From a virus, in the IMG/VR virus record IMGVR_UViG_3300043540_000091, positions 64,001 to 128,000 of that record: a stretch of DNA of 64,000 bases. One strand, written 5' to 3'. Position numbers and translations under genes: made by a program. The notes below the pieces were generated by a model. That model was given only the letters and a program-made list of their open reading frames with translations, ran no database searches and was not told the origin of the DNA. Shown here one piece after another: positions 18,347 to 49,125 of the stretch (within the stretch, counting starts at the first letter, position 1; the number at the start of each line of letters is the position of its first letter).

Positions 18347-19416
18347 ATGTTGCCGTTCCTCAAGGTCGGGCACATGTCGTACACCTTCTTGAGAACTTCC
18401 TCTTGTATATCCTTCGGGACCTGATTGATCTCGAAGAACTCGCTCGAGAACTTGATGAACGATGCTGGCACGCCTTCCGACTCTTTCACCGACACTTTTA
18501 CCGATTCATCGGTATAGGTGGAGCTTGCCTTGATGCCTCCTGGCAGCTGGCGCTCCGTCTTCTTGACGAAGTCCTTCGTTCCTGTGATGTGAACGTAAAC
18601 TCGGTTGGCCTTGATCTTCTTGACGACCTCTTCAACCTTGGCGATCTGCTCGGCGGCGCTTGGACCTTCCTCGATCGACAACTTCGTGAACGGAGACCAG
18701 ACTTCCCACGGAGTCTCCTGGAAGTAGATCTCGCCGGTGCTCAAGGTCATCACATGGATACCCTTCACGGTACCAACATCTGACTTGTTGAGATGTCGTG
18801 GTGTTCCGAAGTAGTAGATGTTGTCACCAAGACGCTGGCAGAGATGAATATGACCAGAGAAGAACTGCAGGTCCTTCGGGTAGCGATCGATCTTGAAACC
18901 GTGCGGCGCGTAGTATCCTGACTCAAACTGCGCTCCGTCAAACTCAGCGTGGCAGAAGATCTTCCGTGCGCCCTTGTTGTAGAGTTCCATCACCTTTGAG
19001 TAGAACTTCTCCTCGTTCCGGATGAATCCAATGATTCCGACCGTGTCCGTGAGCATTGAACCTTCAGCTCCTGTAACGACAGTGTAGTCGCCGTGGACGT
19101 CCAAGGCGTTGGCGGTCTCCTGCTGGTTCATGTCATGATTGCCGACGATCGACTCAGACGGATAACCAAGGTTGACAAGGATGTACTTGTACGCCCAGGT
19201 CCAGAACTGTTCGATCAATACTTCCTTCACGCCGAACTTGTCGTACAGATCTCCCATGAAGATCGGTACGGCCTTCTTGCCGGTTGTGGCGGAGATATGA
19301 AGAACGCCTGCGACGAGCCACTTGATGAACGCAGTAGCCTCGGCTATGTTGCCCTCGTCTACGTGCATGTCACCTACCGGAACCAGGATCTCTGGCTTGA
19401 ATGGTCTCTCGATCAC
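18343..19416 (-). CDS. Mre11/SbcD (T4 gp47)-like metallophosphoesterase nuclease
   Basis: GDMH, MGDLYD, VGNHD, FCH, SGHIH, YFGTP motifs. Confidence 0.8.
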   Translation of the reverse strand: MIERPFKPEILVPVGDMHVDEGNIAEATAFIKWLVAGVLHISATTGKKAVPIFMGDLYDKFGVKEVLIEQFWTWAYKYILVNLGYPSESIVGNHDMNQQETANALDVHGDYTVVTGAEGSMLTDTVGIIGFIRNEEKFYSKVMELYNKGARKIFCHAEFDGAQFESGYYAPHGFKIDRYPKDLQFFSGHIHLCQRLGDNIYYFGTPRHLNKSDVGTVKGIHVMTLSTGEIYFQETPWEVWSPFTKLSIEEGPSAAEQIAKVEEVVKKIKANRVYVHITGTKDFVKKTERQLPGGIKASSTYTDESVKVSVKESEGVPASFIKFSSEFFEINQVPKDIQEEVLKKVYDMCPTLRNGNI

Positions 19417-19700
19417 TCGGCCTTCCTGTATCCAAAAACATACGCTTCAGGGCACAGAACGAACATGACGTCGCCGTAGCGGTACAGGCTGAGCTTCTGG
19501 AATGCGGCCTCTCCCTTGAGGAGTGCCTTGTCGCCAGCCTTCAGTTGAACTCCATCAAGAATGTAGTCCATCATTAGCTCGGCCTCGATGACCTCGACGC
19601 GAGCGACTGCCCGAGCGATACCTCCGGTAAGCTCGACGTCGACCTTCTTTGCTTCAAACGGTTTTAGGGCGAGTTCGCCCTTCTTCGTTCCCGTGACCAT
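19413..19700 (-). CDS. divergent GroES/Cpn10-like co-chaperonin
   Basis: About 95 aa. LALKP..TGGI mobile-loop motif, LKAGDKALL, and YGDVMFVLCPEAYVFG match the GroES layout. GroEL is encoded about 4.5 kb away. Confidence 0.6.
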   Translation of the reverse strand: MVTGTKKGELALKPFEAKKVDVELTGGIARAVARVEVIEAELMMDYILDGVQLKAGDKALLKGEAAFQKLSLYRYGDVMFVLCPEAYVFGYRKAE

Positions 19701-20722
19701 CAATCCTCCGTTATGATACCGTACATCTCGCCATGCTTCATGACGAGGACCTTCTTCTCAATCAGTTTAAGCCGCTCCAGCTGAACTGTCAACTTGGTGC
19801 GCAGCTCCTTGTTCTCGACCTTGTCGATCTCACTGTCAGGATCTCCTACGGTCTCGGACATCGGCCTGGAACCTTCTGAACTATAGTCTAGGCTCGCTAC
19901 GCTCGTGGTCGCGGCCTCAAGCTCAGCGATGTAGGACGCCGTGACTCCATTGAAGCTCTCGTTCACGAACTTCACCAGCTCTTCCTCAGTGATGTTCTCA
20001 TTGTTCTTTCGAGCCATCCGGACTCGGTACAAAATCCTGCGATCCTTCGGCGACAGCTTGATCAAGGTCGAGCTGTAATCTTCCGACATGTTCAGTCCCA
20101 TGCGCCCGATAGCCGTAGACCGGAATACGGTCTTGTATGGAGGTACGAAGTTATCGATCGCCTCGAGAAGTCCCTTTCCGGAATCTTGGATAAGGTCCAT
20201 GTACTCTACGTGGTTATGAGGCACGTTCGACCAGAAGCGCTTGGCCCAGTGAATCGCCAACGGAAGATTGTTCTCGCAGAGAAGTTGCCGATGCTGAAGG
20301 ATGGCTTCGTAGGTCTTCTGAAGACGCGCACGCGATCTGCCGTTGTAGTGGTTGACGCCGTTCTTGTCCTTATCCAGTACCCACTTGGCAAACAGATAGT
20401 TGATCCGGAAACGATGAAGCTTGCGCGGATTGCCCTCCTTGAGGATGGGGAACATTCGGTCGGAGAACGTATCTTGGCGTTCCCTGAAGTACGGCCTGAC
20501 GGACAGCTTGTTCTTCTTGTTGTTGAGGATGAAATTCATGAACTTCTTGTAAGAAACGTGACCAGACTGGCTTGCGAGCAGGATTCTCTTGAACTCATTC
20601 TCGAGTCTGAAAAGCTCGTTGAGGAGCTGGCGCTGCGACTTGCCGTTAACCTCTTCGTTCTCGCGGAGCATATCGTCCATCTCGCTGACGAACTTGCGGA
20701 AAAGATTAACTCCTTCGCTCAT
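19700..20722 (-). CDS. sigma70-family RNA polymerase sigma factor (ends before the region 4.2 HTH)
   Basis: Region 2: LCENNLPLAIHWAKRF..YMDLIQDSGKGLLEAIDNF. Region 3: VASLD. Terminates after the 4.1-like LKLIEKKVLVMKHG. Confidence 0.8.
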   Translation of the reverse strand: MSEGVNLFRKFVSEMDDMLRENEEVNGKSQRQLLNELFRLENEFKRILLASQSGHVSYKKFMNFILNNKKNKLSVRPYFRERQDTFSDRMFPILKEGNPRKLHRFRINYLFAKWVLDKDKNGVNHYNGRSRARLQKTYEAILQHRQLLCENNLPLAIHWAKRFWSNVPHNHVEYMDLIQDSGKGLLEAIDNFVPPYKTVFRSTAIGRMGLNMSEDYSSTLIKLSPKDRRILYRVRMARKNNENITEEELVKFVNESFNGVTASYIAELEAATTSVASLDYSSEGSRPMSETVGDPDSEIDKVENKELRTKLTVQLERLKLIEKKVLVMKHGEMYGIITED

Positions 20723-22215
20723 ATACGATGCTCCACGACGTCTCCCATCGAGTTATAGATCACGACGCGTTCGTTCGCGTGGCGTTCCATCATCTTGGAA
20801 CCGACGACTCTGAAGTCAGCGACGAAGAGATCCTTCTTGGCGTCAGTGATCCGTGTTCCTCGACCTATCCCCTGCTTGACCTTGGTCTCCGATGTCCCTC
20901 CCTGGAGATATACCAGAGATCCTGTTGGTTTAGTGTCGACGCCGGTGCTGATGGCACTCGTTCCGATCAGAAGCTTGGTCTCGCCACGGTTGAACCTGTC
21001 GACCATCGCATCGACGTCCGGCTTCCATTGCTCGCGCGGGAAGTTATCCTTGAGGTTGACTCCGTCGACGACCTCTCTGTCTGGGATGCCACCATGAGCA
21101 AACTCGTACGGTATGGTCAGATATGGCTTAAGGGCTAGGAACTGATTGAACTCCTCGAGCAGGATGATCGTTTGACGGTTCGATATGGTGACGGACTTCT
21201 GCGCGAACTCAGCCGCGAGCTTGTTGACATGTGGATTCAGGTGAAGCTGATTACGAACCTCGGTCTTGCCATCACGCGAGCCGGTAGGACCAAAGGCTGG
21301 TACCTCGAACATATGGAAGTACGGTCGTGCCAGGAAGCCCTGGTCGACGAGTTTCTTGAACTCCTTGCGATACACGACCGGTCCCGTGATGCCCTTGAGA
21401 AGCATGTCGGTCCCATCGTTTCGCATCTGCGTCGCGGACACGAAGAACCTGGCCGGAACATCTCTCAGAAGACCTAGCGCGACGCGCTCCATCGTGTCAG
21501 CCGGTGTGGTATGAGACTCGTCCCATACGAACTGCTGAGTCTTCACGAAGAAGTCCCACTCCTCCGTGTTCGGCTCGATGTTGGTGAGTGCCTGACCGGT
21601 GCAGACAGTGAACAGCTTGCCGAGGTCGTGGCGGCCTGCGCCGTACTTCCCGACGTACCGACCTCCGAACAGGTGAACCATCTCCTTGTGAAGCTGGTTC
21701 GTGATGGTCTTGCTCGGAGTGATCACCGTGGTCGGAACCGGATTGCGCTTGCAGATCTCCTCGATGATCCGACTCTTGCCGGAACCTGTCGGAAGCTCGA
21801 CCGCCGCCGGTCCGTACTTGGCATTGTCGAAGAGGGCGTCTACCGACTCTTCCTGGTAATACCGCGCCTTGAAGTCTGGGACGTGAGCCCACGGCAGCGA
21901 GAAGCTTGCCTGTGGTATATTGAGACTTTGGTCTAGGTCCCAGCCGAAGGTTAGCTTGAAGTCGCGCCAGAGGCCAGCGTACGTGTACGGTGTCCCAGAT
22001 TGATCCAGCATCATGAGGGTACGCTTCTGTCTCAGTTTGAGTTCCTCGATCTTGGCCGCGTGGCCGTCAGGATCTCGGCGCTTCCACTGGTAGTTCATTC
22101 GAGTCTTCTGGAGCTGATACTTGACGTCGTTGTCGACGTACTCGAGGAAGGTACGGACCTTGGTCGAGTCTTCTGGAAGTCGTATTACGGATGGCGCGGC
22201 GAATGATATGCCCAT
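20719..22215 (-). CDS. superfamily 2 DExH helicase (UvsW/ResIII-like)
   Basis: YQEESV, LPTGSGKS, WDESH, SAT, TGVD, QGIGRGTR motifs. Start reassigned to ATG 22215 because the longer ORF overlaps a real opposite-strand gene. Confidence 0.88.
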   Translation of the reverse strand: MGISFAAPSVIRLPEDSTKVRTFLEYVDNDVKYQLQKTRMNYQWKRRDPDGHAAKIEELKLRQKRTLMMLDQSGTPYTYAGLWRDFKLTFGWDLDQSLNIPQASFSLPWAHVPDFKARYYQEESVDALFDNAKYGPAAVELPTGSGKSRIIEEICKRNPVPTTVITPSKTITNQLHKEMVHLFGGRYVGKYGAGRHDLGKLFTVCTGQALTNIEPNTEEWDFFVKTQQFVWDESHTTPADTMERVALGLLRDVPARFFVSATQMRNDGTDMLLKGITGPVVYRKEFKKLVDQGFLARPYFHMFEVPAFGPTGSRDGKTEVRNQLHLNPHVNKLAAEFAQKSVTISNRQTIILLEEFNQFLALKPYLTIPYEFAHGGIPDREVVDGVNLKDNFPREQWKPDVDAMVDRFNRGETKLLIGTSAISTGVDTKPTGSLVYLQGGTSETKVKQGIGRGTRITDAKKDLFVADFRVVGSKMMERHANERVVIYNSMGDVVEHRI

Positions 22216-22221
22216 GCTCGG

Positions 22222-22266
22222 ATGATACCACGATATGTTTGATTTACGAAAGAGTCGTGGTATAGT
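22222..22266. promoter_or_regulatory. divergent promoter pair at the strand switch (TGGTATCAT minus 22222-22230; TGGTATAGT plus 22258-22266)
   Basis: Two extended -10 boxes in opposite orientation in the short gap where gene orientation flips. Confidence 0.65.
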
Positions 22267-22287
22267 TGATCTCATCAGAGGTGTCCT

Positions 22288-22701
22288 GTGAAGAAGAAAC
22301 CCAAGATATCCGAAACATTCCTTGGTTCGGTCGAAGATGCCATGGCCTACGGCGTCTACGAAGCCATCATGCTCTACCACATCCGCTGGTGGATGAAGAC
22401 CAACAAGGAGAACGGCGTAAACATCTTCCCAGACAAGAACGGCGTCCTTCGGTACTGGACCTACAACACCAGGAAGGCCATGATGAAGTGGTTTCCGTAC
22501 TGGAGCGAGTCCCAGATCCGCCGAATCCATGAGTCCTTGGTCCAACAGGGCGTGATCCTGGTCGGACGCTTCAACAAGAACCCGTTCGACACGACCAACT
22601 GGTACACCCTAAACGACGATTCGAGCAGAGTTCAGGCAGGCACCTCCGTCTCCAACGACAACGACAACGACAAGTTCACCGACGTGGAGGAACTGGAGTG
22701 A
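22288..22701 (+). CDS. phage replication initiator-like winged-helix protein
   Basis: YGVYEAIMLYHIRWW..WTYNT..FPYWSESQIRR..L..QG..G.FNK..DTTNWYTL is typical of the phage replisome-organizer N-terminal domain. Followed by iterons and DnaB. Confidence 0.75.
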   Translation: MKKKPKISETFLGSVEDAMAYGVYEAIMLYHIRWWMKTNKENGVNIFPDKNGVLRYWTYNTRKAMMKWFPYWSESQIRRIHESLVQQGVILVGRFNKNPFDTTNWYTLNDDSSRVQAGTSVSNDNDNDKFTDVEELE

Positions 22702-22865
22702 CGAATCTATCCTTCCGGACTGACGAAATCGTACATCGCGTTGACCGTCACGTCGACTGCCGAAATCGTACATCATTGACTGACGAAATCGTCCCTCAAT
22801 GTTTGCCGAAATCGTACTTCCTTCTATATACACATATATACCAGGTATTAAAACAGGTATTCACG
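22696..22865 (+). repeat. iteron array plus AT-rich tract: candidate replication origin
   Basis: 17-bp repeats G(A/T)(C/T)TG(A/C)CGAAATCGT(A/C)C at 22718, 22755, 22778 and 22801, a degenerate copy at 22696, then an AT-rich tract at 22818-22865 with two CAGGTATT copies. Confidence 0.75.
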
Positions 22866-22893
22866 AAAGGCATCTTTTCGGGAGGGGAAACAC

Positions 22894-24207
22894 TTGGCTG
22901 AAAATCGTGATGATAGACTCCCTCGAGAAGCCCAGCTTGCCGTGATCGGTCACTGCATGCGTAGTCCAGACTTCTACCTTCGAGTGTCTCCCACTCTCCC
23001 CGCGAACTACTTCGTCGACCTGATCGCTCGAAACATCTACGCGTACGTTGGGCAGCTCTACGAGAACAACGCCCGCGCCATCTCTGGGCTTGAACTCAGG
23101 ACCTACGTCAAGCAGTACCAGTCAGATCCACAGTCCTTCGAGCGTTATTCCAAGTACATCGCCGAGGCCGAGATGTACTCGGCTGACTTCACTACTGGCC
23201 GACTCATGGGCCTGCTCCAGAGGCAGCGTGCTCACTACGAGTACCAGTCCGGCATGATCGATCTCTCCAAGAAGGTGGGCGCTGGCAAGAAGGAAGAGGC
23301 GATGGAGGTCATCAAGAAGTTGGCCGAACTCGACAAGTCTTCGCTCATGAGCCAGCCTTCATCGGAAGAGAACCTCTTGGCGCTGGACGAGGAAGAGCGT
23401 AAGTGGGAAGAATCGCTCAAGAATCGCGTTCCTCTCATCTCTCCAAAGGTCAACGGCAAGTTCATGCTCATGCCTGGTATCACCCTCATCGGCGGCGTGA
23501 CCAAGTCCGGTAAGTCGACCATCCTTGCCAATCTCGTACCGGCGATCCTGAACCACTTCCAGGACAAGAAGATCTTCATCATCTCGAACGAGGATGACAT
23601 GAACCGGATCAGTTCGCGCATCGCGTGCTGCGTGCTGGGCGTTCCGATCCGCAAGTTCATGAACGATCCTTCGAGCCTTCCGCCGGAGACGGTCGCGCAG
23701 GTGAAGCAGCTCAAGAGATCCGTCGCGTCGCGCATCGTCGTGGCGTCCATGCCGCACTACGACACCTCGAACATGGAGACTGTTCAGGGCCTGCTGGAAG
23801 AAGTAAAGGCTGACGCAAAGGCTGGTAAGTACTCGGCAATCCTGCTTGACTACTATCAGATCGTCGCGAACTCGAAGAAGTTCCAGAACGTGGAGTATGT
23901 CGGCATCGCGAAGAAGTTTGGAGGCTGGCTCAAGGGCTGGGCCGCCGACATCCCGATCCCCATGATCCTGTTCGCGCAGCTTAAGCCGACCGCCGACCGC
24001 GAGGATATGCCGTTCTCTCAGCGAGTCCAGGGCGATACACACATAGCGAACCACGTTCACGCTGGTCTTGAGATCGTACGTGAGACGGACGATCGCGGCG
24101 ACATCACCAAGATCGTGTGCCAGCTCTCGCGTCACGGCGACAACCTGGGCACTGTCGGGACCTTCCGGTACAACGGCGGCCAGTTGATGTACCAGGACAA
24201 GCCTTAA
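22894..24207 (+). CDS. dnaB: DnaB-like (SF4) replicative helicase
   Basis: GGVTKSGKST Walker A, ISNE, ILLDYYQ, LFAQL, and SRHG arginine-finger region. Confidence 0.82.
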   Translation: MAENRDDRLPREAQLAVIGHCMRSPDFYLRVSPTLPANYFVDLIARNIYAYVGQLYENNARAISGLELRTYVKQYQSDPQSFERYSKYIAEAEMYSADFTTGRLMGLLQRQRAHYEYQSGMIDLSKKVGAGKKEEAMEVIKKLAELDKSSLMSQPSSEENLLALDEEERKWEESLKNRVPLISPKVNGKFMLMPGITLIGGVTKSGKSTILANLVPAILNHFQDKKIFIISNEDDMNRISSRIACCVLGVPIRKFMNDPSSLPPETVAQVKQLKRSVASRIVVASMPHYDTSNMETVQGLLEEVKADAKAGKYSAILLDYYQIVANSKKFQNVEYVGIAKKFGGWLKGWAADIPIPMILFAQLKPTADREDMPFSQRVQGDTHIANHVHAGLEIVRETDDRGDITKIVCQLSRHGDNLGTVGTFRYNGGQLMYQDKP

Positions 24208-24210
24208 TCG

Positions 24211-24219: not shown

Positions 24220-24236
24220 AGTTACGGAGGACACTT

Positions 24237-26018
24237 ATGTCACTTTTCCACGTCAACAAGCCAAAGTCTGCACCGAAGGTCATGATCCCGTCGAGCGAAC
24301 GACTCACCAACGAGGTGGTCGACACCCTCAGCATGATGGCTTCGATGGCCGGACAGACCTTAGGTCCAGGTGGACGTCAGGTCCTGATCGAGCGTCAAGA
24401 GATAAACATGAAGCCGATCGTCACCAAGGACGGCGTTACGGTGATCAAGAACCTTGGATTCGACGATCCCGTCCGCCAGCTGATCCTCGAGGCTGCACGC
24501 GACGCGGCGATCCGTACCGCTAACGAGGCCGGAGATGGCACTACGACGGCCACGGTGCTGTCCAGCGCGATATGCCGGTCAACCATCGAGGTAGTCAAGA
24601 ATAACCCAAGGATGAGCCCACAGCGCATCGTACGCGAGATGCAGCGCATGGTCCCAGACATCATCCGCAAGATCGAGTCGTACCGCATCGACGTGACCGG
24701 CGAGAACTATACCAACGTCCTGACCAGAGTTGCGACACTGTCCGCCAACGGCGACGCTGAGCTGGCCGCCAAGATCATCGAAGGTAACGACATGGTCGGC
24801 GAAGAAGGTGACATGACCATCGTCGAGATGTCAGGACCTTCCAAGTACGTGCTCGAGCGCATCAGCGGCTACACCATCGAGCGCGGATACGAGGAGTCCT
24901 GCCGGACCTTCTCCAACGGCTTCATCAACGACAAGACTGGGACCATGGTCGTGCTGGAACGTCCCGTATTCCTGCTGTACGACGGCTTCGTGAACGACTT
25001 CATGCAGATCTACGACGCGCTTCAGAACCTGTACAAGGCCATGAAGGATGAGAAGCGCACGGAGATGAACGTGGTCATCGTCGCTCACGGCTTCTCGGAT
25101 CAGGCTCTAGGTGATCTTCACACCAACTGGAACCACTCTGCCTCGACTCTCAAGGCGTTCCCGATGATGACGCCCGAGAAGGCCATCCTGAACTGGCGCT
25201 CAACCTTCCTGTACGATCTTCAGGCCTATACTGGCACTCCCGTGTTCAATCCGGTTGACCGCCCTTTGGCCGACATGAACGCAACTGGGGTACTGGCCAT
25301 CAGTCGAGTCAAGCGATTCGAGTGCAGCCGGTTCAAGGCCATGGTATTCGCAGACGAGGACGAGACTTCGATCTCGATCCGCGTCGAAGAACTGAAGGAA
25401 CACCGCAAGAATCCAGAGTCAGACTACGAACTGAACGACCTCAACGTCCGCATCGGTAAGTTGACCAGCGGCATCGTCCGCCTCAACATCTACGGTCCTT
25501 CGGCTGGTGAGACTCGCGAGAAGCGCGACCGTGCCGAAGACGCTTGGATGGCGATCAAGGGCGCGATCAAGCACGGCGCGGTCCCTGGCGGAGGATTCGT
25601 CCTCGTCAAGCTGGCTGCGTTCCTTCAGGTCACAGCCAATGAGATGAAGCGTGGAGCAAGACAGTACGCCGTCCAGATCCTGGGAGAGGCATTGCTCGAG
25701 CCGGTTCGTCTCCTGTACCGCAACTACGGGTACAACAACGAAGAGATCGAGAGACATATCATCGACATGCTGGCAAACGAAGAGCAGACCTTCGACATCT
25801 CTGAAGAACTGTTCGTACCCAAAGCAGATCTGCTTGACAGCCTGCCTGCGGTAGCCGAAGCTATAAGAAACAGCGTGTCCATCTCGGCACTTCTCGGTAC
25901 GATCGGCGGCATCGTCGCCTTCCGGCGCGACAGTCAGACGGACAAGGAAGAAGAGAGACTGGTTCGCCAATTCGAGACCGCCATCGGCGAGAGAGGATCG
26001 TTGAATGCAGGCCAGTAG
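24237..26018 (+). CDS. groEL: phage-encoded GroEL-like chaperonin
   Basis: TLGPGGRQV, VTKDGVTV, AGDGTTTATVL, SANGD, RIGKLTSG, EKRDRAEDA, GAVPGGG. No GGM tail. Confidence 0.95.
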   Translation: MSLFHVNKPKSAPKVMIPSSERLTNEVVDTLSMMASMAGQTLGPGGRQVLIERQEINMKPIVTKDGVTVIKNLGFDDPVRQLILEAARDAAIRTANEAGDGTTTATVLSSAICRSTIEVVKNNPRMSPQRIVREMQRMVPDIIRKIESYRIDVTGENYTNVLTRVATLSANGDAELAAKIIEGNDMVGEEGDMTIVEMSGPSKYVLERISGYTIERGYEESCRTFSNGFINDKTGTMVVLERPVFLLYDGFVNDFMQIYDALQNLYKAMKDEKRTEMNVVIVAHGFSDQALGDLHTNWNHSASTLKAFPMMTPEKAILNWRSTFLYDLQAYTGTPVFNPVDRPLADMNATGVLAISRVKRFECSRFKAMVFADEDETSISIRVEELKEHRKNPESDYELNDLNVRIGKLTSGIVRLNIYGPSAGETREKRDRAEDAWMAIKGAIKHGAVPGGGFVLVKLAAFLQVTANEMKRGARQYAVQILGEALLEPVRLLYRNYGYNNEEIERHIIDMLANEEQTFDISEELFVPKADLLDSLPAVAEAIRNSVSISALLGTIGGIVAFRRDSQTDKEEERLVRQFETAIGERGSLNAGQ

Positions 26019-26268
26019 AGTTCTCCTAGCTCTATCCATGATCGTCAACATGTATCTGTCGTACTCACTGTACCGCGCGAATGAAACGAACGAGTTGATG
26101 TTCAGCGGACTTACGATGATAGCTAAGGCCGCGAAGACTGGCAAGGCAGAGGCATTCAAGTCCGGATGCATGTCGGCGGTCGTGAGCGCACTGCATCTTG
26201 ACACGGAAGATCCGCTCTATGAGCAATGGTGCTCGATGATGGGCGCTAAGTACTCAGTAGCGAAGTAG
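26005..26268 (+). CDS. small hypothetical protein with hydrophobic N-terminus
   Basis: Overlaps the groEL stop; RBS-like GAGG upstream. Confidence 0.55.
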   Translation: MQASRVLLALSMIVNMYLSYSLYRANETNELMFSGLTMIAKAAKTGKAEAFKSGCMSAVVSALHLDTEDPLYEQWCSMMGAKYSVAK

Positions 26269-26269
26269 T

Positions 26270-26548
26270 ATGGCATGGTTCACGTACCGGTGTCCGGAAC
26301 ACGGAGAGTTCAAGATGTCGCTCCAGAAGAGGGAGCAGACACAGGCATGTCCGACGTGCGGATCTCGGTCAGTACCAATGTTAAAAACCAGCGGAAGCGT
26401 GTCCATCGTCGAACGGCTGGACAACGGTATCATGGGCCGTGCAGTGGAACGTCTACACAACATCGAAGAGATCATGAACGATCGCGCGGACAAGCATTCA
26501 AAAGAGTTCGAGCAACGGAACGGCGGAGCAGGTGAAGACAATGATTGA
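26270..26548 (+). CDS. FmdB-like zinc-ribbon protein
   Basis: MAWFTYRCPEHG..ACPTCGS pattern. Confidence 0.7.
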   Translation: MAWFTYRCPEHGEFKMSLQKREQTQACPTCGSRSVPMLKTSGSVSIVERLDNGIMGRAVERLHNIEEIMNDRADKHSKEFEQRNGGAGEDND

Positions 26549-31714: not shown

Positions 31715-32401
31715 ATGAACGCACTGAACAAGATCGCAGAGATGGAAGCAAAGCTGGCCGCCCTCGAGAAGATCGCCATGGGCATGCCGAAGATGGTTCA
31801 AGACTTCCAACGTCTTTCCGACGACGTGAAGCAGATCACGAAGGCCTGCGAGAACCTGATCACGGTCATCAACAAGCGGACCGGAGATCTTGCTCAGGTG
31901 GACAACATCATAATCACCCGACAGATGGCGCTCGAGCAGTCGCTCGCGTCGCTCTCAAAAACCGCCGCTGCGATGGTAGCAGAGTTGTCCGAGACTAAAG
32001 TCCTGAATCAAGAAGCTGTCATGCTGAGAATGAGAAAGTCCGACGAAGAGCTTGACAAGCAACGCGTCGAGAAGATGATCGAGCAGAAGGTCCTCAAGGA
32101 AGCTGAAACTATCACGAACGACTCGTTTATCGTGGTATCTCAAGAGTTTACATACGCCGATGGGAAGGTTGACGTGGTAGCGGAGTTCCGTTCATACGAC
32201 ATGACCAACCCAGAACTCGACGAGGACACCAAGAAAAACTACGTCGGCAAGCGTAAAAATGATACCGTCGAACTTAATCTTGAAGACGGTGTTTTAAGAA
32301 CCACCGTCCTTCAGGTCTACGACTATGTCCAGGTCTACGCCGAATCAAATGGCGAAGATCAAGCGAAGGATGAGTCGCAACCTCAGGCAAACCAACAATA
32401 G
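31715..32401 (+). CDS. coiled-coil protein with a possible FKBP/trigger-factor-like C-terminal domain
   Basis: AGGAG RBS. C-terminal ITNDSFIVVSQEFTYADGKV..YVGKRKNDTVEL..TTVLQVYD loosely follows the FKBP-fold pattern. Confidence 0.4.
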   Translation: MNALNKIAEMEAKLAALEKIAMGMPKMVQDFQRLSDDVKQITKACENLITVINKRTGDLAQVDNIIITRQMALEQSLASLSKTAAAMVAELSETKVLNQEAVMLRMRKSDEELDKQRVEKMIEQKVLKEAETITNDSFIVVSQEFTYADGKVDVVAEFRSYDMTNPELDEDTKKNYVGKRKNDTVELNLEDGVLRTTVLQVYDYVQVYAESNGEDQAKDESQPQANQQ

Positions 32402-42924: not shown

Positions 42925-42925
42925 G

Positions 42926-43633: not shown

Positions 43634-43663
43634 ATCTGTGTTATTATGTTATAGAGGTGGAAT

Positions 43664-44179: not shown

Positions 44180-45030
44180 GCCTTGTTAAACGAATCCTCT
44201 ACTTCAAGATCAAGCTTGCCTTGGTAGCCGCAACGGTTTCCCTGGCAGCTACTACGTGCGCGATCAGCGTGCCGCGCACCTACAAGGCGTACATGCGCCA
44301 TAAGGTCGGCAGCCGAGTCGTTGCAGTGACGGTGACGGAGTTCTCAAAGGACAGGGACAACACCGGCGGCGGAACCGGATTCTTAGTCAAAGCACCAAGC
44401 GGTAAGACCTTCATCGTCACCAATCGTCACGTCTGCGATGATTCCAAAGACGGATCGATGTGGGTAACGGTAGACGGGATGACGCAGGATCGTAAGCTGA
44501 AGATCCTCAAGAAGTCGGATCAGGCAGACCTGTGCCTCATGGAACCTATTCCTGGCATCGAAGGTCTCGACATCGGTGATACCCCAGCAGTTGGCGACGA
44601 CGTCATCTATATAGGACACCCTAGACTTCAGGCTAGGACTTATGTTTCAGGCGAGCTGGTCGGTACCAAGATCGAAACTGTGATTCGCGGACAGGTCGGG
44701 AAGGAGATCTCAGAGGCCGAATGCAAGGCGTCCAAGGACTCCTACATCGCTGATACTTATGAGATCTACCTCATCCTTCGCAGGCTCGCGCGGGATGTTA
44801 CGCCGACACAATCTATCGAGAGCCTCTTCAAGACTTCCAACAAGGTTACGGTGTGTTACGAACGTGGGCAGGCCTACGTGACCACTCTCGATGTTTACGG
44901 TGGTGCTTCCGGAAGTCCTATGGTAAACGTATATGGAGAAGTCGTTGGCGTGATCTATGCTGGCGAACAGGGCCAGTGGGGTTACGCCGTAATCTTGGCT
45001 GAACTCAAACAGTTACTGAAAGGAAGGTAA
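44176..45030 (+). CDS. trypsin-like (S1) serine protease with N-terminal signal/anchor
   Basis: GGGTGF, VTNRHV, DLCL, GGASGSP triad motifs. Probable CTG start at 44176 (CTGA overlap, GGAG RBS). Confidence 0.88.
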   Translation: MSLVKRILYFKIKLALVAATVSLAATTCAISVPRTYKAYMRHKVGSRVVAVTVTEFSKDRDNTGGGTGFLVKAPSGKTFIVTNRHVCDDSKDGSMWVTVDGMTQDRKLKILKKSDQADLCLMEPIPGIEGLDIGDTPAVGDDVIYIGHPRLQARTYVSGELVGTKIETVIRGQVGKEISEAECKASKDSYIADTYEIYLILRRLARDVTPTQSIESLFKTSNKVTVCYERGQAYVTTLDVYGGASGSPMVNVYGEVVGVIYAGEQGQWGYAVILAELKQLLKGR

Positions 45031-45031
45031 C

Positions 45032-45742
45032 ATGAAGATCGTAGCAGTCAATGGCTGGACGCATTCTGGCAAAGACACCTTGGCGAACATCCTCGTCGAA
45101 GAATATGGATTCAAACGGATCGGGTTCGCAGATCCTTTGAAGGATACTGTAGCCGAACAGTTCGGCTTCGATCGCGCATCTCTCGATGACCAGAACCAGA
45201 AGAACCTTCCGTTGCTCAACCTTCCGGTCAGCCTGCGCGATGGTTTCACCAAGAACCTCGGCACGTTCATGGTTCGTGAGTTCCGTACGAAGGACGGTAA
45301 GATCTGCAAGACTGGAATCTTCCATGAGATCGACGGAGTCACCGACTTCTATGGCGTTCACGACGACGGTACGATGCAGAAGCTGTACTGGACTCGTCGC
45401 GCATTGTGTATCTTGGAAGGTTCTTCCAAGCGTACTGTTGATCCAGACTACTGGGTTAAGAAGGCTATCGAGCTGGCTCGCAAGAGTGGCATGGAGCGTG
45501 TCGTGATCAGTGACCTTCGGTATCAGAATGAGACCGCAGGCGTGAAGATGTCCCTAGAAGAGGGAGATACTCTTCTTACGGTTCGCGTAAATCGCTTCGA
45601 TGAACACCCTACTAACTCGACAGATCCGTCGGAGCGCGACATGGACACGGCCAAGTTCGACGTTGTGATCGAAAACAAGGGCACATACGAAGAGTACATC
45701 CATAAGGCCCATTCCTTTGCTGCAGATGTGGTGAAGTCATGA
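45032..45742 (+). CDS. deoxynucleoside monophosphate kinase (T4 gp1-like)
   Basis: NGWTHSGKDT, FADPLKD, DYWV, ISDLRYQNE, PSE motifs. Confidence 0.85.
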   Translation: MKIVAVNGWTHSGKDTLANILVEEYGFKRIGFADPLKDTVAEQFGFDRASLDDQNQKNLPLLNLPVSLRDGFTKNLGTFMVREFRTKDGKICKTGIFHEIDGVTDFYGVHDDGTMQKLYWTRRALCILEGSSKRTVDPDYWVKKAIELARKSGMERVVISDLRYQNETAGVKMSLEEGDTLLTVRVNRFDEHPTNSTDPSERDMDTAKFDVVIENKGTYEEYIHKAHSFAADVVKS

Positions 45743-45951
45743 AGCTCAAGACGGTCATCAAGCGACATCCGCGCCTGAGCAACGCCGTCGAGTTCGACGT
45801 GATGAAGGACAACTTCTCGATCGAGTCAGGTTCGGTCGTCAAGGCTACCCTGACAGAGGCATTCGAGGAGGCGAAGCGCCGCGTCGTGGCGATCTTCCCT
45901 CAGATAACGATGGAGGAGTTAGGTGAGCTTCAGCTACCAGATGGTAACTAA
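45739..45951 (+). CDS. hypothetical protein
   Basis: ATGA-coupled ORF. Confidence 0.55.
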   Translation: MKLKTVIKRHPRLSNAVEFDVMKDNFSIESGSVVKATLTEAFEEAKRRVVAIFPQITMEELGELQLPDGN

Positions 45952-46144
45952 GGAGATCAACGAGATCTTCGAGCATACCACTCTCGCTAAGACGGCAGCC
46001 TACGAAGCTGGGCTTCATTCAGGAGCTGGCAATGAGCAACTCTGTGAAGCCAAGATCGCAGATCTCAAGGCTAGGATGAAGGAGATCCAGAGAATGATGA
46101 CTCAGCTCGATCACAAGATCGAGTACATCAAGAATCAGTCCTGA
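45941..46144 (+). CDS. hypothetical coiled-coil protein
   Basis: ATG at 45941, in frame with the tracked ORF. Confidence 0.5.
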   Translation: MVTKEINEIFEHTTLAKTAAYEAGLHSGAGNEQLCEAKIADLKARMKEIQRMMTQLDHKIEYIKNQS

Positions 46145-46386
46145 TGCCGATAGGCGACGTCCTCGATGTCGCACTTCCTGCAGAATCGTCTGTGCCTGTT
46201 GAACATGAGAATCGGCCTATTCCAGCTGTGACTGTACTTGGATCTGATCTCATCAAGCTCGTGAACATACAGCTTGAAGGCAAACCCTTCGTTCAGGTCC
46301 AAGAGATTCTTCGATTGAAGCTCTCGGATTCGTTTGATCAGTATAGCTGCTCGGCCTTCGGGCTCGTCCGCGTCATACCACAGCAT
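46135..46386 (-). CDS. hypothetical protein with C-terminal CxxC
   Basis: Directly follows the M15 gene. Confidence 0.5.
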   Translation of the reverse strand: MLWYDADEPEGRAAILIKRIRELQSKNLLDLNEGFAFKLYVHELDEIRSKYSHSWNRPILMFNRHRRFCRKCDIEDVAYRHQD

Positions 46387-46836
46387 CTACGGAAGGAACC
46401 AACGCTTGCCGGAGGCCGGAGGTTCGTTCTGGAAGTGAACCCAGTTGGTGTTACCTTCCTCGCACCATAGTCCGGCCTGCTCGAGCAACGACTCGTTGAC
46501 CTTAAGCCACGCGGTTATCTTCAGTCCTGGATCTGAGATATCTGCTGCGCGACCGTACAAGTGCCTGGACTTCATGGGCACCTTTGATTGGTCAAACACA
46601 CCGTTCTCGAATGGCTTCTGATGCTTGGTCGCCTTGTCCTTGTAGATCCGAAGGTGATCGTCAATCGTTCTGAGTCCTGATGTAACGGTCCAGTTTGAGA
46701 CAGGGTTCCCAGGTTGTTGCATCAGCCAGTTGATGCGCGGCAGGAGGTCCATCAGCATGTCCTGAACCTTCAGATCCTGGTCTGCAAACTCATATCGATG
46801 ATTTAGAAGGTCTTCCATCGTAACCATATGATACAC
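46387..46836 (-). CDS. peptidase M15-family (Zn D,D/L,D-peptidase), probable endolysin
   Basis: VTSGLRT, SRHLYGRAADI, WVHFQ motifs; preceded by the CCTAATCT box. Confidence 0.85.
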   Translation of the reverse strand: MYHMVTMEDLLNHRYEFADQDLKVQDMLMDLLPRINWLMQQPGNPVSNWTVTSGLRTIDDHLRIYKDKATKHQKPFENGVFDQSKVPMKSRHLYGRAADISDPGLKITAWLKVNESLLEQAGLWCEEGNTNWVHFQNEPPASGKRWFLP

Positions 46837-46857
46837 TTCACCTCACTTTTACCTTGA

Positions 46858-46881
46858 AGATTAGGCTATGCGTGGTATGAT
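46858..46881. promoter_or_regulatory. back-to-back promoters: CCTAATCT (minus, 46858-46865) and TGGTATGAT (plus, 46873-46881)
   Basis: Both motifs lie in the 50-bp divergent gap. Confidence 0.6.
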
Positions 46882-46886
46882 ATGCT

Positions 46887-47156
46887 ATGGGAAAGAAGCT
46901 GAAAAGAATGGGCGACATCATGTTTCTTGTCGAGAAGTTCGTCAGCAAGGCTGCAGGCGAACACGACCTCCAGCGCCATGAGATACTGGCCCTGGTTGAC
47001 AGGCATATAATGTTCCATTATCCTAATGCAAACGAGGAGTTCAATGATGGTACACGACCGTTCGTGTACTTTGGACACCAGGACGGAGTTGAAGATGCTC
47101 TCGAGATTGCTCGCGCTGTGGATCGCCATCGCCGGAAGCGTCGCCGGAGCCGCTGA
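46887..47156 (+). CDS. hypothetical protein
   Basis: ATG 5 nt after the -10 box. Confidence 0.6.
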   Translation: MGKKLKRMGDIMFLVEKFVSKAAGEHDLQRHEILALVDRHIMFHYPNANEEFNDGTRPFVYFGHQDGVEDALEIARAVDRHRRKRRRSR

Positions 47157-47376
47157 CTTCTGTCAAGCTCCCGACGAGATCGGCATATTCCGCGCCGACG
47201 ATCCAGTCCTGGATCGTGTGGATGTTACGTGGGGTACCGAGACATTTCGCAGATACTTCAAGGGCCGCGTCTTGGACGGAAACGAGAATGGCCGGAAGAT
47301 GCACGAATGGGTATTGAGCATAATGGAGGCTAGATGCAGATCTACGACATCGTCACGTATCCAGACGACAGACTAA
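47095..47376 (+). CDS. small protein with signal-peptide-like N-terminus
   Basis: MLSRLLALWIAIAGSVAGA with GGAG upstream; overlaps both neighbours. Confidence 0.4.
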   Translation: MLSRLLALWIAIAGSVAGAADFCQAPDEIGIFRADDPVLDRVDVTWGTETFRRYFKGRVLDGNENGRKMHEWVLSIMEARCRSTTSSRIQTTD

Positions 47377-47810
47377 ATACTCCGTGCGACAAGGTCACTC
47401 AGTTTGGAACGAATGAACTTCGCGAGATCGTTCAGCGCATGCACGCGACCATCAAGCACAAGAAGAGCCTTGGTTTCGGCCTTGCGGCGAACCAGGTTAG
47501 CATCATGCTTCAGATCATCGTCATCAATACGATGTCAAACAACAAGAAGGCTCAAGGGTACCTTGGCGCTCTCATAAATCCAGAGATCATAGAATACACC
47601 GGCGGTATCGAGATGGGTAACGAAGGATGTCTGTCATTTCCGAAGGACCGCTACGACGTTGCTCGGTCCACGAAGGTTAAGGTAAGGTTCCACGACATCG
47701 ATGGCAACGAGATCATTCGCAACTTCTCTGGTCTCAACGCCGTGGTCGTACAGCATGAAGTGGATCATATCAACGGTCTTACAATGGCCGACAGAGCGAA
47801 TGGACTTTAA
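47334..47810 (+). CDS. def: peptide deformylase
   Basis: GFGLAANQV, EGCLSFP, QHEVDHING motifs; short C-terminus. Confidence 0.96.
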   Translation: MQIYDIVTYPDDRLNTPCDKVTQFGTNELREIVQRMHATIKHKKSLGFGLAANQVSIMLQIIVINTMSNNKKAQGYLGALINPEIIEYTGGIEMGNEGCLSFPKDRYDVARSTKVKVRFHDIDGNEIIRNFSGLNAVVVQHEVDHINGLTMADRANGL

Positions 47811-48319
47811 TGGGAACAGCGCTTGATCTAACAGGTAAGAAGTTCGGAAACTTTACGGCAATCGAGCGCTCTAATTCTAGAATCGTTTGCGGTGAAGTTC
47901 TATGGCTATTCCAGTGCGACTGCGGCAATAAAACTGAACATGTTGGGAATCGAGTTAAAAGAGGAGATATAGTTTCCTGTGGATGCTCGCGTCGCGGGAT
48001 TCATGAAGATACCGGCAGAAGGCTTCAAATGGAATCATATAAGCGTGGAGCTAAAGTCCGTGGATTTAAGTTCGATCTTACCGCCGATGAGTTCAATCGG
48101 ATTACATCTGGAAATTGCGAGTATTGTGATGCAGCTCCATCGATACGGACTAGACATGGATATTCTTGCTTGTTCAACGGTATAGACCGTAAAGATCATA
48201 CGCTCGGTTGTTCTATGAACAACTGCGTTCCGTGCTGCATCAAGTGCAATCGAATGAAAGGAACCCTTTCGACCCAAGAGTTCTTAACTCAAATTAAACT
48301 TATTTCGGAGAATCTGTGA
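47810..48319 (+). CDS. HNH-like homing endonuclease
   Basis: DLTGKKFG..WLFQCDCGN..SCGC N-terminus; CEYC..NGIDRKD..NCVPCCIKCNRMKG. AT-richer than its neighbours. Confidence 0.85.
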   Translation: MGTALDLTGKKFGNFTAIERSNSRIVCGEVLWLFQCDCGNKTEHVGNRVKRGDIVSCGCSRRGIHEDTGRRLQMESYKRGAKVRGFKFDLTADEFNRITSGNCEYCDAAPSIRTRHGYSCLFNGIDRKDHTLGCSMNNCVPCCIKCNRMKGTLSTQEFLTQIKLISENL

Positions 48320-49125
48320 AGGACCACGCACTGATCCAAGGCATGCGCAAGGCAGGTAAGCTCGCAGCACTCGTGCTCGAACAGGTCTGCGCTGCGGCCA
48401 AGGAGGGCGTCACGACGAACGAACTCGACAAGCTGGCGCACGACATCACCATCGCCAATGGCGGCACGAACGCTTGCCTCGGCTACAAGGGTTATCCGAA
48501 GTCGATCTGCACATCCGTGAACGAGATGCTCTGCCATGGCGTTCCTAACGATGAGCCTCTCAAGAACGGCGACATCGTCAACATCGACGTGACCGTCAAG
48601 GTCGGTCCGTACCACGGCGACACTTCTCGAACCGTGGCCATAGGAGAGGTCTCTACCGACGCGTACGCTTTGATCTGCGCCGCGCGCGAGGCGATGATGG
48701 CCGGTATCGCGGCGGTAAGGCCGAACGGTTTCACCGGCGACATCGGCAACGCCATCTCTACGTTCATCAAGGGTAACTATCCCCAGTTCACGGTATGTCG
48801 CGACATCGGCGGCCACGGTATCGGACGAGTCTTCCACGACAAGCCGTTCATACCTGGATTCGGAGACCCTCGCACGGGTGAGAAGCTGAAGCTGTGGTCG
48901 TGCATCACGGTAGAGCCGATAGTCCTATGGAACGTGCCGAAGTACGGTTCTCGTCCGATCGCTCCGCACAAGGATCATAAGGAATGTAAGGTCCAGGAGA
49001 TCGTTGGGACCGGCGGCCTTGCGGCACAGTTCGAGCATACGGTACTCATAACGGTGGACGGTCCGGAGATCCTGACGGAGATACCAATCTTACCCATAAG
49101 GCAGGGATTGCTTGAGCGTTACTAG
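48316..49125 (+). CDS. map: methionine aminopeptidase type I
   Basis: GYKGYPKSICTSVNE..CHGVP, GDIVNIDVT..YHGDTSRT, GHGIG..FH, TVEP, AQFEHT motifs. Confidence 0.96.
   Translation: MKDHALIQGMRKAGKLAALVLEQVCAAAKEGVTTNELDKLAHDITIANGGTNACLGYKGYPKSICTSVNEMLCHGVPNDEPLKNGDIVNIDVTVKVGPYHGDTSRTVAIGEVSTDAYALICAAREAMMAGIAAVRPNGFTGDIGNAISTFIKGNYPQFTVCRDIGGHGIGRVFHDKPFIPGFGDPRTGEKLKLWSCITVEPIVLWNVPKYGSRPIAPHKDHKECKVQEIVGTGGLAAQFEHTVLITVDGPEILTEIPILPIRQGLLERY

What the first reader, a model, noticed from the sequence alone, without database searches (positions are those of the whole stretch)
19413..49125. Near-complete phage-encoded nascent-protein maturation pipeline (Def, Map, FKBP-like, GroEL/GroES)
Seen: peptide deformylase (47334) and Met aminopeptidase (48316) are adjacent apart from an HNH insert. 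Also present are GroEL (24237), a GroES-like ORF (19413) and a possible FKBP/trigger-factor-like domain (32100-32330). Knowledge: these are the sequential bacterial steps of N-terminal processing and folding. Phage def and chaperonin genes are known individually. Inference: this phage may supplement or replace the host's post-ribosomal processing, possibly to handle very large virion proteins or to control N-degron/fMet signals.
Basis: partly seen in the sequence, partly recalled or inferred. Interest (0 to 1): 0.7.

Follow-up and report, generated by a model that had tools for sequence, protein, structure and literature searches.

The report
Phage protein-maturation genes, not one module
A large Mx1-like phage carries working-looking copies of the two enzymes that trim new protein ends, its own GroEL chaperonin, a hidden GroES-like partner and an FKBP-like protein, but they are inherited as separate units, not as one pipeline.

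Summary
Def (47334-47810), type I MetAP (48316-49125) and GroEL (24237-26018) pass Pfam's cut-offs with their catalytic residues intact.

An HNH endonuclease ORF sits exactly between def and map. In three relatives (G001, G004, G018) def abuts map directly.

The two weak calls fail Pfam and PHROGs but hold at fold level.
- The 96-aa ORF models as a GroES/gp31-type barrel with a floppy loop that carries a conserved Gly-Gly motif. Every top fold hit is a Cpn10 protein. A profile-profile match to GroES gives P 6e-5, above 31 controls.
- The 228-aa ORF is a long coiled coil plus a trigger-factor/FKBP-type domain (Z 9.8, rmsd 2.4 Å).

The "pipeline" reading is only partly supported. GroEL, the GroES-like gene and the FKBP-like gene are core genes of this clade. 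def-map is an accessory cassette 21 kb away: three near-complete relatives have neither gene, Mx1 has only def, and G002 has only map.

Phage MetAP occurs in at least 79 IMG/VR loci, and GroEL in only 5 of 50 of those records searched.

The parts
19413..19703 (-). 96-aa ORF (likely start ATG at 19700): divergent GroES/T4 gp31-like co-chaperonin candidate, lying between a sigma-factor gene (19700-20722) and an SbcD-like gene (18343-19416)
   Evidence: No Pfam or PHROG hit. A homolog is found in 16 solid of 19 GroEL-bearing relatives. AF2 model: pLDDT 72, all-beta, with residues 18-33 under pLDDT 50 around the conserved G26 G27. The top 10 Foldseek PDB hits are all Cpn10/GroES (E 0.009-0.17). 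VIA wide: GroES Z 5.8, gp31 Z 4.8, Hsp10 Z 4.7. Atlas structure row 1 is a GroES family, TM 0.56. hhalign against a 35-sequence GroES profile: Prob 64.6, P 6.3e-5, against a maximum score of 16.8 in 30 shuffles.
24237..26018 (+). GroEL-like group I chaperonin, 593 aa
   Evidence: PF00118 E 9.6e-40. PHROG groEL E 3.6e-80. 40% identical to the annotated GroEL of Myxococcus phage Mx1. Aligned with E. coli GroEL, these residues are invariant: GDGTTT (86-91), D52, D398, GGG 414-416, Y199 and F204. There is no C-terminal GGM tail.
31715..32401 (+). 228-aa protein: long N-terminal coiled coil (residues 3-123), a C-terminal FKBP/trigger-factor PPIase-like domain (about residues 126-205, nt about 32090-32330) and an acidic disordered tail
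   Evidence: No Pfam or PHROG hit. AF2 model: pLDDT 71.5 overall and 81-87 in the beta domain. Foldseek: T. maritima trigger factor 3gu0/3gty E 1.8e-4, then TIG1, FKBP13, SlpA, SlyD, FkpA. VIA wide: 3gty_X Z 9.8, rmsd 2.4 Å, 78 aa, 26% identity, chain residues 147-229. The family is present in 13 of 19 relatives and in 6 of 6 that are at least 90% complete.
47334..47810 (+). Peptide deformylase, 158 aa, without the C-terminal helix of E. coli Def
   Evidence: PF01327 E 3.2e-45. The motifs GLAAxQ, EGCLS and HExDH are invariant in the alignment with E. coli Def. The protein ends 17 residues after HEVDH, where E. coli Def runs 32 more. GGAGG lies 5 nt before the ATG.
47810..48319 (+). Free-standing HNH endonuclease ORF inserted between def and map
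   Evidence: PHROG HNH endonuclease E 2.6e-17 and endonuclease VII E 3.9e-13. Start and stop overlap both neighbours. It is absent between def and map in G001, G004 and G018. It has no paralog in the genome.
48316..49125 (+). Type I methionine aminopeptidase (269 aa from the GTG; the database copy starts 9 residues later)
   Evidence: PF00557 E 1e-44. The metal ligands aligned to E. coli D97, D108, H171, E204, E235, plus H79 and H178, are invariant, and also invariant across 29 clade homologs. The closest relatives, 56-87% identical, sit on contigs of 97-170 kb.

Best explanation
The phage holds three separately inherited sets of genes that act on newly made proteins. (1) A core chaperonin pair: a GroEL-like ATPase plus a very divergent GroES/gp31-type lid protein encoded 4.5 kb away on the other strand. 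By analogy with T4 gp31 and GroEL, this pair probably folds phage proteins such as the capsid protein (inferred). (2) An accessory two-gene cassette, def then map, which performs N-terminal methionine excision: Def removes the formyl group and MetAP then removes Met. This probably adds processing capacity, or independence from the host enzymes, while phage proteins are made in bulk (inferred). In this genome a homing-type HNH endonuclease gene has landed between the two genes without breaking either. (3) A core coiled-coil protein with an FKBP/trigger-factor-like domain, whose role is open. Shown here: family membership and intact catalytic residues for Def, MetAP and GroEL; the fold-level calls for the other two proteins; the gene distribution. 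Inferred: activity, substrates and timing.
For: Pfam and PHROG hits are. Catalytic residues are kept against the E. coli proteins. MetAP ligands are invariant in 29 clade homologs at 57-87% identity, which indicates long purifying selection on phage-sized contigs. def abuts map in G001, G004 and G018. The GroES-like evidence is; one clade member (G012/G016) has the loop EEKRSAGGLMLPG, which aligns with GroES ETKSAGGIVLTG. Marine et al. 2017 (PMC5649160, passages read) report three relevant points. The functional co-chaperonin loop is a Gly followed by three small hydrophobic residues. 23% of viral GroES proteins have a polar residue at loop position 2 or 3. Many viral GroEL contigs carry their own GroES. 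Distribution: the GroES-like gene is in 16 solid of 19 records, the FKBP-like gene in 13 of 19, Map in 6 of 19 and Def in 6 of 19. Host MetAP is needed late in the lytic cycle of a Streptococcus phage (PMC6761271, abstract read). Phage PDFs commonly lack the C-terminal helix (PMC3660681, passages read).
Against: No activity, expression or binding data exist. The GroES-like ORF fails PF00166 at Pfam's cut-off. Only 2 of its 16 close relatives reach even E 0.015, and 0 of 150 family representatives match at E<=0.01. Fold scores are modest: Foldseek E > 0.001 and Z 5.8, where the tool notes that Z below 8 can be a common arrangement. The hhalign match covers only 37 columns at 65% probability. 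The FKBP-like domain has no sequence-level match to trigger factor (hhalign E 0.14 and 0.53), and it lies among replication and recombination genes. Def is no more similar among the phages (36-44%; 66% for the closest pair) than to E. coli Def (36-40%). It may therefore have been replaced, or it may simply evolve fast.
Confidence: 0.6

Rival explanations
1. Integrated pipeline: Def, MetAP, the FKBP-like protein, GroEL and the GroES-like protein act in sequence as a phage-owned system. This system replaces the host's handling of nascent chains and evolves as a unit.
For: All five folds or families are present in one genome. Four of the five lie on the same strand in the non-structural gene block 22.9-50.2 kb. 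G001, G004 and G018 also hold GroEL together with def-map.
Against: The genes are not linked: GroEL and def are 21 kb apart. def and map are missing from G012, G014 and G015 (98-99% complete), which keep GroEL. G012 and G014 also keep the GroES-like gene; in G015 it was not found, because GroEL lies at the contig end. Mx1 has Def only and G002 has Map only. GroEL is found in only 5 of 50 Map-bearing viral records. No trigger-factor ribosome-binding domain, Hsp70, Hsp20 or Fmt is encoded.
Confidence: 0.15
2. Counter-measure cassette: def-map supplies isozymes that keep N-terminal processing running when the host's own enzymes are limiting, mutated (MetAP-based phage resistance) or inhibited. 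The possible inhibitors are natural PDF or MetAP inhibitors in soil communities; that such inhibitors exist is recalled, not checked.
For: A single host MetAP mutation blocks a late step of phage DT1 (PMC6761271, abstract). The cassette is accessory and patchy, as counter-defence genes often are. The phage Def lacks the helix that docks E. coli Def on the ribosome (the docking role is taken from passages of PMC3660681).
Against: No inhibitor, defence system or resistant-site change was identified here. All catalytic and ligand residues are canonical, so nothing marks these as resistant variants.
Confidence: 0.12
3. The two fold-level calls are look-alikes with other jobs. The 96-aa ORF is a small beta-barrel protein unrelated to chaperonins. 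The 228-aa ORF is a DNA- or transcription-associated protein; Gre factors also combine a coiled coil with an FKBP-like domain.
For: Both fail Pfam and PHROG HMMs. The 96-aa ORF lies between a sigma-factor gene and an SbcD-like gene. The 228-aa ORF lies between a RuvC-like gene and an exonuclease gene. GreA/Gfh1 chains appear in the Foldseek list at ranks 10, 17, 27 and 31. The fold scores for the 96-aa ORF are middling.
Against: For the 96-aa ORF, every one of the top 10 Foldseek hits and the top 4 VIA hits is a Cpn10-type chain. The floppy loop sits where the GroES mobile loop sits, and the profile match beats 31 of 31 controls. For the 228-aa ORF, the VIA top rows are trigger factor, TIG1, FKBP13, SlpA and SlyD, with no Gre factor in the 50 rows shown. 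The Gre matches in Foldseek have rmsd 14-18 Å.
Confidence: 0.2
4. def-map is a recent passenger taken from a host and has no adaptive role.
For: The closest named cellular MetAPs are about 48-51% identical (Bdellovibrionales). The cassette's occurrence is patchy.
Against: About 30 homologs at 56-87% identity form a group on 97-170 kb contigs, set apart from cellular proteins at 53% identity or less, with all ligands invariant. The tight def-map junction is kept in genomes whose MetAPs are only 51-59% identical. GC content around the cassette matches the rest of the window.
Confidence: 0.05

Closest known systems
Cyanophage S-SSM7 and vibriophage peptide deformylases (Frank et al. 2013, PMC3660681)
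   Same: It is a phage-encoded PDF with the three active-site motifs and without the C-terminal alpha-helix (passages read).
   Different: Here def is the first gene of a def-map pair, in a phage related to a myxophage rather than in a cyanophage, and there is no photosystem context.
T4 gp31 / RB49 CocO and viral GroES-GroEL pairs (Marine et al. 2017, PMC5649160)
   Same: It is a small all-beta lid-type protein with a flexible Gly-containing loop, in a phage that also carries GroEL. Like gp31, it is too divergent for Pfam Cpn10.
   Different: It is not in an operon with GroEL: it lies 4.5 kb away on the opposite strand. It belongs to its own family of at least 582 cluster representatives, none of whose top 150 match Cpn10 at E<=0.01. 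Binding to GroEL has not been shown.
Phage chaperonins of EL (gp146), OBP and AR9
   Same: It is a phage-encoded GroEL homolog with about 25% identity to E. coli GroEL and intact ATP-site residues.
   Different: Those chaperonins are reported to work without a co-chaperonin (stated for EL in PMC5649160; the rest is recalled). This clade keeps a GroES-like gene in nearly every genome.
Vibrio phage V6Aob (PV454620.1)
   Same: It is an isolated phage whose GenBank record annotates both a polypeptide deformylase and a type I methionyl aminopeptidase in one early-gene block.
   Different: In V6Aob the two genes are 13 kb apart, not adjacent. Its MetAP is 34% identical to the window's and its Def 35%.
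Trigger factor PPIase domain; SlyD, FkpA and Mip FKBP chaperones
   Same: The fold of residues 126-205 matches (Z 9.8 to T. maritima trigger factor). FkpA and Mip also combine long helices with an FKBP domain.
   Different: There is no PF00254 or PF05697 match, no ribosome-binding domain and no signal peptide, and the active-site residues were not assessed.

Membership tests
Peptide deformylase (PF01327) | Profile score above Pfam's gathering cut-off | tested here: met
   154 bits against 22.8
Peptide deformylase (PF01327) | Three active-site motifs G-x-G-x-A-A-x-Q, E-G-C-L-S and H-E-x-x-H | tested here: met
   GFGLAANQ, EGCLS and HEVDH align with the E. coli Def motifs and are invariant in the 5-sequence alignment A8
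Peptide deformylase, E. coli-type ribosome-docking form | C-terminal alpha-helix after HExxH | tested here: not met
   The protein ends 17 residues after the motif, and all four phage Defs aligned are short. The same is described for other phage PDFs (PMC3660681).
Type I methionine aminopeptidase (PF00557, M24) | Profile score above the cut-off and the five metal ligands (E. coli D97, D108, H171, E204, E235; numbering recalled) | tested here: met
   153 bits against 23. All five ligands, plus H79 and H178, are invariant in A9 and in the 29-sequence A7.
Group I chaperonin GroEL (PF00118) | Profile score above the cut-off and the ATP-site residues (GDGTTT, D52, D398, GGG) | tested here: met
   137 bits against 34.3; invariant columns in A10
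Group I chaperonin GroEL (PF00118) | Ring oligomer that encloses substrate | not testable with these tools
   A model or experiment on 7 or more subunits is needed
Co-chaperonin Cpn10/GroES (PF00166) | Profile score above Pfam's cut-off | tested here: not met
   No hit for the ORF. No PF00166 in the genome. 2 of 16 relatives match, with best E 0.015. 0 of 150 family representatives match at E<=0.01.
Co-chaperonin Cpn10/GroES (PF00166) | GroES beta-barrel fold | tested here: met
   The Foldseek top 10 are all Cpn10 (prob 0.85-1.00, E 0.009-0.17). VIA Z 5.8/4.8/4.7 to GroES, gp31 and Hsp10 over 82-88 of 95 residues. Atlas TM 0.56. The scores are modest.
Co-chaperonin Cpn10/GroES (PF00166) | Mobile loop with a conserved Gly followed by small hydrophobic residues | tested here: inconclusive
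   Residues 18-33 have pLDDT below 50. G27 is invariant in 16 sequences, followed by I/M/L/F, then A/V/M/G, then mostly R. One member has AGGLMLPG. Polar residues at loop position 2 or 3 occur in 23% of viral GroES (PMC5649160).
Co-chaperonin Cpn10/GroES (PF00166) | Heptamer that binds GroEL with ATP | not testable with these tools
   The one complex job gave no verdict (see Tried and rejected)
FKBP-type PPIase / trigger factor | PF00254 (FKBP_C) profile match | tested here: not met
   No hit at E<=0.01, and none in the genome at E<=1
FKBP-type PPIase / trigger factor | FKBP fold | tested here: met
   VIA Z 9.8, rmsd 2.4 Å, 78 aa to the trigger-factor PPIase domain. Z 8.1 to TIG1 and Z 7.9 to FKBP13. 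Foldseek E 1.8e-4.
FKBP-type PPIase / trigger factor | Trigger-factor ribosome-binding N domain (PF05697) | tested here: not met
   None in the genome at E<=1. The N-terminal part is a coiled coil.
FKBP-type PPIase / trigger factor | Aromatic active-site pocket residues | not tested
   No residue-level structural alignment was available
Free-standing HNH homing endonuclease | HNH family match, and presence/absence polymorphism between conserved neighbour genes | tested here: met
   PHROG E 2.6e-17. The ORF is absent from the def-map junction in 3 relatives. Homing itself was not tested.

The most novel reading that the evidence does not exclude
A clade of roughly 140-170 kb Mx1-like phages makes the maturation of its proteins largely independent of the host. 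It uses a private chaperonin with a previously unrecognised family of GroES-like lids, a trigger-factor-like PPIase on a coiled-coil stalk and, in some lineages, a mobile def-map cassette for methionine excision. The host's own machinery for these steps would then be a point of conflict between phage and host.
Probability: 0.15. Interest if true: 0.75.

Novelty: new variant of a known kind. Interest (0 to 1): 0.5.

Why it matters
Phage deformylases and phage chaperonins are known. A phage MetAP joined to def as one cassette was not found in any paper I searched (supplements were closed and subscription journals are not held). MetAP genes do exist in public phage records. If the cassette is active, removal of N-terminal Met becomes a step that phages can bring with them, which links to the finding that a host MetAP mutation can confer phage resistance. 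The 96-aa family has at least 582 cluster representatives and is invisible to Pfam Cpn10. It may be a large unrecognised group of viral co-chaperonins.

Tried and rejected
Complex prediction of the phage GroEL (A2) with the 96-aa ORF (A1) gave no verdict: scores 0.24 and 0.21 against a mark of 0.32. It counts neither for nor against binding.

Sequence-only searches that found nothing useful:
- PDB profile searches with A1 and A3 gave no GroES hit.
- The A4 profile hit only coiled coils.
- hhalign of A5 against single GroES and gp31 sequences gave E 0.1 and 0.26.
- hhalign of A4 against E. coli trigger factor gave E 0.14, and against a 31-sequence trigger-factor profile E 0.53.
- BLASTP of the G016 member against GroES gave E 0.022.

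Other dead ends:
- Megablast of groEL against the phage collection found no match.
- A single-protein locus search with MetAP found nothing; the alignment A7 was needed.
- ORF 26005-26268, which overlaps the GroEL 3' end, has no homolog in the relatives, so I dropped it as a co-chaperonin candidate.
- The G009 match to the 96-aa family (E 5.6e-4, with stops inside) fell in a 286-aa ORF and gave tblastn E 7.2. I count it as doubtful.
- Whether Def was replaced or merely evolves fast could not be settled.
- The GroEL scan covered only 50 of the 79 Map loci. Distances between Def and Map were worked out by hand from the coordinates.

Full report
WHAT THE DNA IS. The window is bases 64001-128000 of a 138,678-bp IMG/VR virus record that CheckV rates 86% complete. 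Its GroEL is 40% identical to the annotated GroEL of Myxococcus phage Mx1, a 169.6-kb myovirus, and no closer phage is in the GenBank phage collection. GC content is even (0.50-0.57) across the window, including the def-map region. The whole record has no tRNA or tmRNA gene.

CHECKING THE FIVE PARTS. Three parts pass curated thresholds.
- Def (47334-47810): PF01327, 154 bits.
- MetAP (48316-49125): PF00557, 153 bits.
- GroEL (24237-26018): PF00118, 137 bits; PHROGs agrees.

Aligned with the E. coli proteins, the catalytic residues are kept.
- Def keeps GLAAxQ, EGCLS and HExDH. It ends 17 residues after the last motif, so it lacks the C-terminal helix, as do the Defs of G001, G004 and Mx1. Frank et al. 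describe the same for other phage PDFs (PMC3660681, passages).
- MetAP keeps the five metal ligands plus H79 and H178 (E. coli numbering, recalled). These are also invariant in 29 clade homologs.
- GroEL keeps GDGTTT, D52, D398 and GGG414-416. It lacks the GGM tail.

The ORF between def and map is an HNH endonuclease by PHROGs (E 2.6e-17). Its start overlaps the def stop and its stop overlaps the map start.

THE HNH IS AN INSERT. In G001, G004 and G018, def is followed at once by map. The pair is therefore an ancestral two-gene cassette, and the HNH gene is a later arrival. The HNH has no paralog in this genome.

THE GroES-LIKE ORF. The 96-aa ORF (19413-19703, minus strand) has no Pfam or PHROG hit, and PF00166 is absent from the genome. 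It is nevertheless conserved. A profile of it finds a homolog in 17 of 19 GroEL-bearing records, of which I count 16 as solid. The misses are G015, where GroEL lies at the contig end, and G017, whose GroEL is only 27% identical.

The fold evidence points one way.
- An AlphaFold2 model from 10 sequences (pLDDT 72) is an all-beta barrel. Residues 18-33 are disordered around the conserved G26 G27.
- The ten best Foldseek PDB hits are all Cpn10/GroES chains (E 0.009-0.17), and T4 gp31 is at rank 21.
- An independent all-against-all aligner ranks GroES (Z 5.8), gp31 (4.8), a Cpn-type chain in a ClpP complex (4.8) and human Hsp10 (4.7) first.
- The ESM Atlas's own model finds a GroES family first, at TM 0.56.
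- One clade member (G012/G016) has the loop EEKRSAGGLMLPG, which aligns with GroES ETKSAGGIVLTG.

At sequence level the support is weak but above chance. The family profile (150 sequences) against a GroES profile of 35 Pseudomonadota sequences gives Prob 64.6, P 6.3e-5 and score 30.8 over 37 in-register columns. A reversed GroES profile scores 9.5, and 30 column shuffles score at most 16.8.

Against the call:
- 0 of 150 family representatives match Cpn10 at E<=0.01.
- The fold scores are below the levels the tools call clear.

I put GroES/gp31-like lid at about 0.65. The family is large, with 582 cluster representatives at E<=0.001.

THE FKBP-LIKE ORF. ORF 31715-32401 has no Pfam or PHROG hit, and PF00254 is not found in the genome even at E<=1. 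A model from 15 sequences shows a 92-residue helix, a second helix, then a beta domain at residues 127-204 (pLDDT 81-87) and a disordered acidic tail.
- That domain matches the PPIase domain of T. maritima trigger factor (VIA Z 9.8, rmsd 2.4 Å, 78 residues, 26% identity; Foldseek E 1.8e-4).
- Next come chloroplast TIG1, FKBP13, SlpA, SlyD, E. coli trigger factor and FkpA.
- The Atlas also lists trigger-factor clusters, at low TM of 0.32-0.39.
- Gre factors appear lower in Foldseek, with rmsd 14-18 Å.
- Profile-profile comparison with trigger factor finds nothing.

A folding role is not shown, however. The gene lies among RuvC-like, SbcC-like, exonuclease and DNA polymerase genes. No trigger-factor ribosome-binding domain exists in the genome. 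I put "acts as a PPIase or chaperone" at about 0.3-0.4.

IS IT ONE SYSTEM? I collected GroEL-bearing relatives (17 IMG/VR loci) and searched these records plus Mx1 and the own genome, 19 in all.
- Map: 6 of 19 (G000, G001, G002, G004, G010, G011).
- Def: 6 of 19 (G000, G001, G004 and Mx1 strongly; G010 and G011 only weak partial matches of 42.7 and 36.3 bits, 32-36 kb from map).
- Among the six IMG/VR records that are at least 90% complete: G004 has both genes adjacent, G010 has both apart, G002 has Map only, and G012, G014 and G015 have neither.
- Mx1 (a complete genome) has Def only.
- G018 (96% complete), found through its MetAP, also has GroEL and an adjacent def-map.
- By contrast, the GroES-like gene and the FKBP-like gene (13 of 19; 6 of 6 near-complete; not Mx1) are core genes.

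Looking outward, a MetAP profile finds 79 distinct viral loci in IMG/VR, many on contigs of 150-460 kb.
- Def is present in 23 of the 77 records that could be searched (12 of 48 and 11 of 29; two records were not held). It directly abuts map only in G001, G004 and G018. In the others it lies 4 kb to more than 100 kb away (distances worked out by hand).
- GroEL is in 5 of the 50 Map-bearing records searched, and three of these are from this clade.
- In the GenBank phage collection, 27 of 50,697 records match the MetAP. Most are unannotated fragments or bacterial assemblies. Vibrio phage V6Aob is an isolate with both genes annotated, 13 kb apart.

The genome has no Hsp70, Hsp20, Fmt or Trigger_N.

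READING. The best account is three separately inherited units: a core chaperonin pair, an accessory def-map cassette for methionine excision, and a core coiled-coil/FKBP-like protein of open function.

The MetAPs of the clade group at 49-59% identity, against 36-40% to E. coli. Their closest named cellular relatives are Bdellovibrionales proteins at about 48-51%. The Defs are as far from each other (36-44%; 66% for G001-G004) as from E. coli Def, so either fast evolution or replacement is possible.

A sigma-70-like consensus match (TTGACA-17-TATCCT, 46996-47024) precedes the cassette. The late-type motif CCTAATCT (6 copies in the window against 1.2 expected) is not upstream of any of the five genes. 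The copy at 46858 faces a minus-strand VanY-like gene. These are consensus matches only.

LITERATURE.
- Viral GroEL, GroES and gp31/CocO are well described (PMC5649160, passages).
- Phage PDF is described (PMC3660681, passages). Al-Shayeb et al. list PDF among huge-phage translation genes, and that text has no occurrence of 'aminopeptidase', 'chaperon' or 'trigger factor' (PMC7162821).
- A myxophage survey preprint has no occurrence of deformylase, aminopeptidase, chaperonin or GroEL.
- Host MetAP is needed by a Streptococcus phage (PMC6761271, abstract).
- Searches for phage-encoded MetAP, a def-map pair, or a phage FKBP/trigger factor returned no paper on these. Supplements were closed and could hold gene lists that mention them.
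- The Mx1 genome announcement (PMC10720576) was seen only in a search listing.

VERDICT. This is a new variant of known kinds, of moderate interest. The two things most worth following are the conserved def-map cassette and the large GroES-like family that Pfam does not see.

Noticed in passing
window 26270-26548 (+): A 92-aa zinc-ribbon protein (PF09723, E 7e-6, below the cut-off) follows GroEL directly in all five close relatives and is also detectable next to the Mx1 GroEL. It may be a conserved GroEL neighbour of unknown role.
   Followed up: partly
window 26005-26268 (+): An 87-aa ORF overlapping the GroEL 3' end has no homolog in the relatives. It is probably not a gene, or is unique to this genome.
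   Followed up: partly
window 44221-45030 (+) and 50394-51266 (-): Two protease genes flank the def-map region: a trypsin-like serine protease (PF13365, E 3.9e-15) and a PHROG 'protease' (E 9.7e-34).
   Followed up: no
window 46387-46836 (-), motif at 46858-46865: A minus-strand VanY/M15-like peptidase ORF (E 4.8e-4, below the cut-off) sits inside the plus-strand block and is preceded by the late-type motif CCTAATCT. It could be a late endolysin-type gene.
   Followed up: partly
L044/L045 (G016, G012), positions 1501-1791: This clade member of the 96-aa family carries a near-canonical GroES loop (EEKRSAGGLMLPG) and the ending FVLIPEERIVAI, bridging the family towards GroES.
   Followed up: yes
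L030 (Mx1 record), about 1483-1947: The Mx1 homolog of the 96-aa ORF is longer (about 142-154 aa), with a C-terminal extension that looks helical by eye.
   Followed up: no
P0148 and P0224: The 96-aa domain also occurs as the C-terminal half of a 204-aa protein, and nine times in a 1674-aa protein. I left the latter out of alignment A5.
   Followed up: no
G010:100815-101039 and G011:51668-51868: These are short, divergent Def-like matches covering only profile positions 9-89, far from map. They may be degraded or repurposed deformylase relatives.
   Followed up: no
window 49650-50153 (+): The gene two places downstream of map has a weak NIF/HAD phosphatase-like match (E 0.0019, below the cut-off).
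   Followed up: no
P0044-P0119: The nearest named cellular MetAPs to the phage clade are from Bdellovibrionales MAGs (about 48-51% identity). This is a possible hint about the donor or host group.
   Followed up: no
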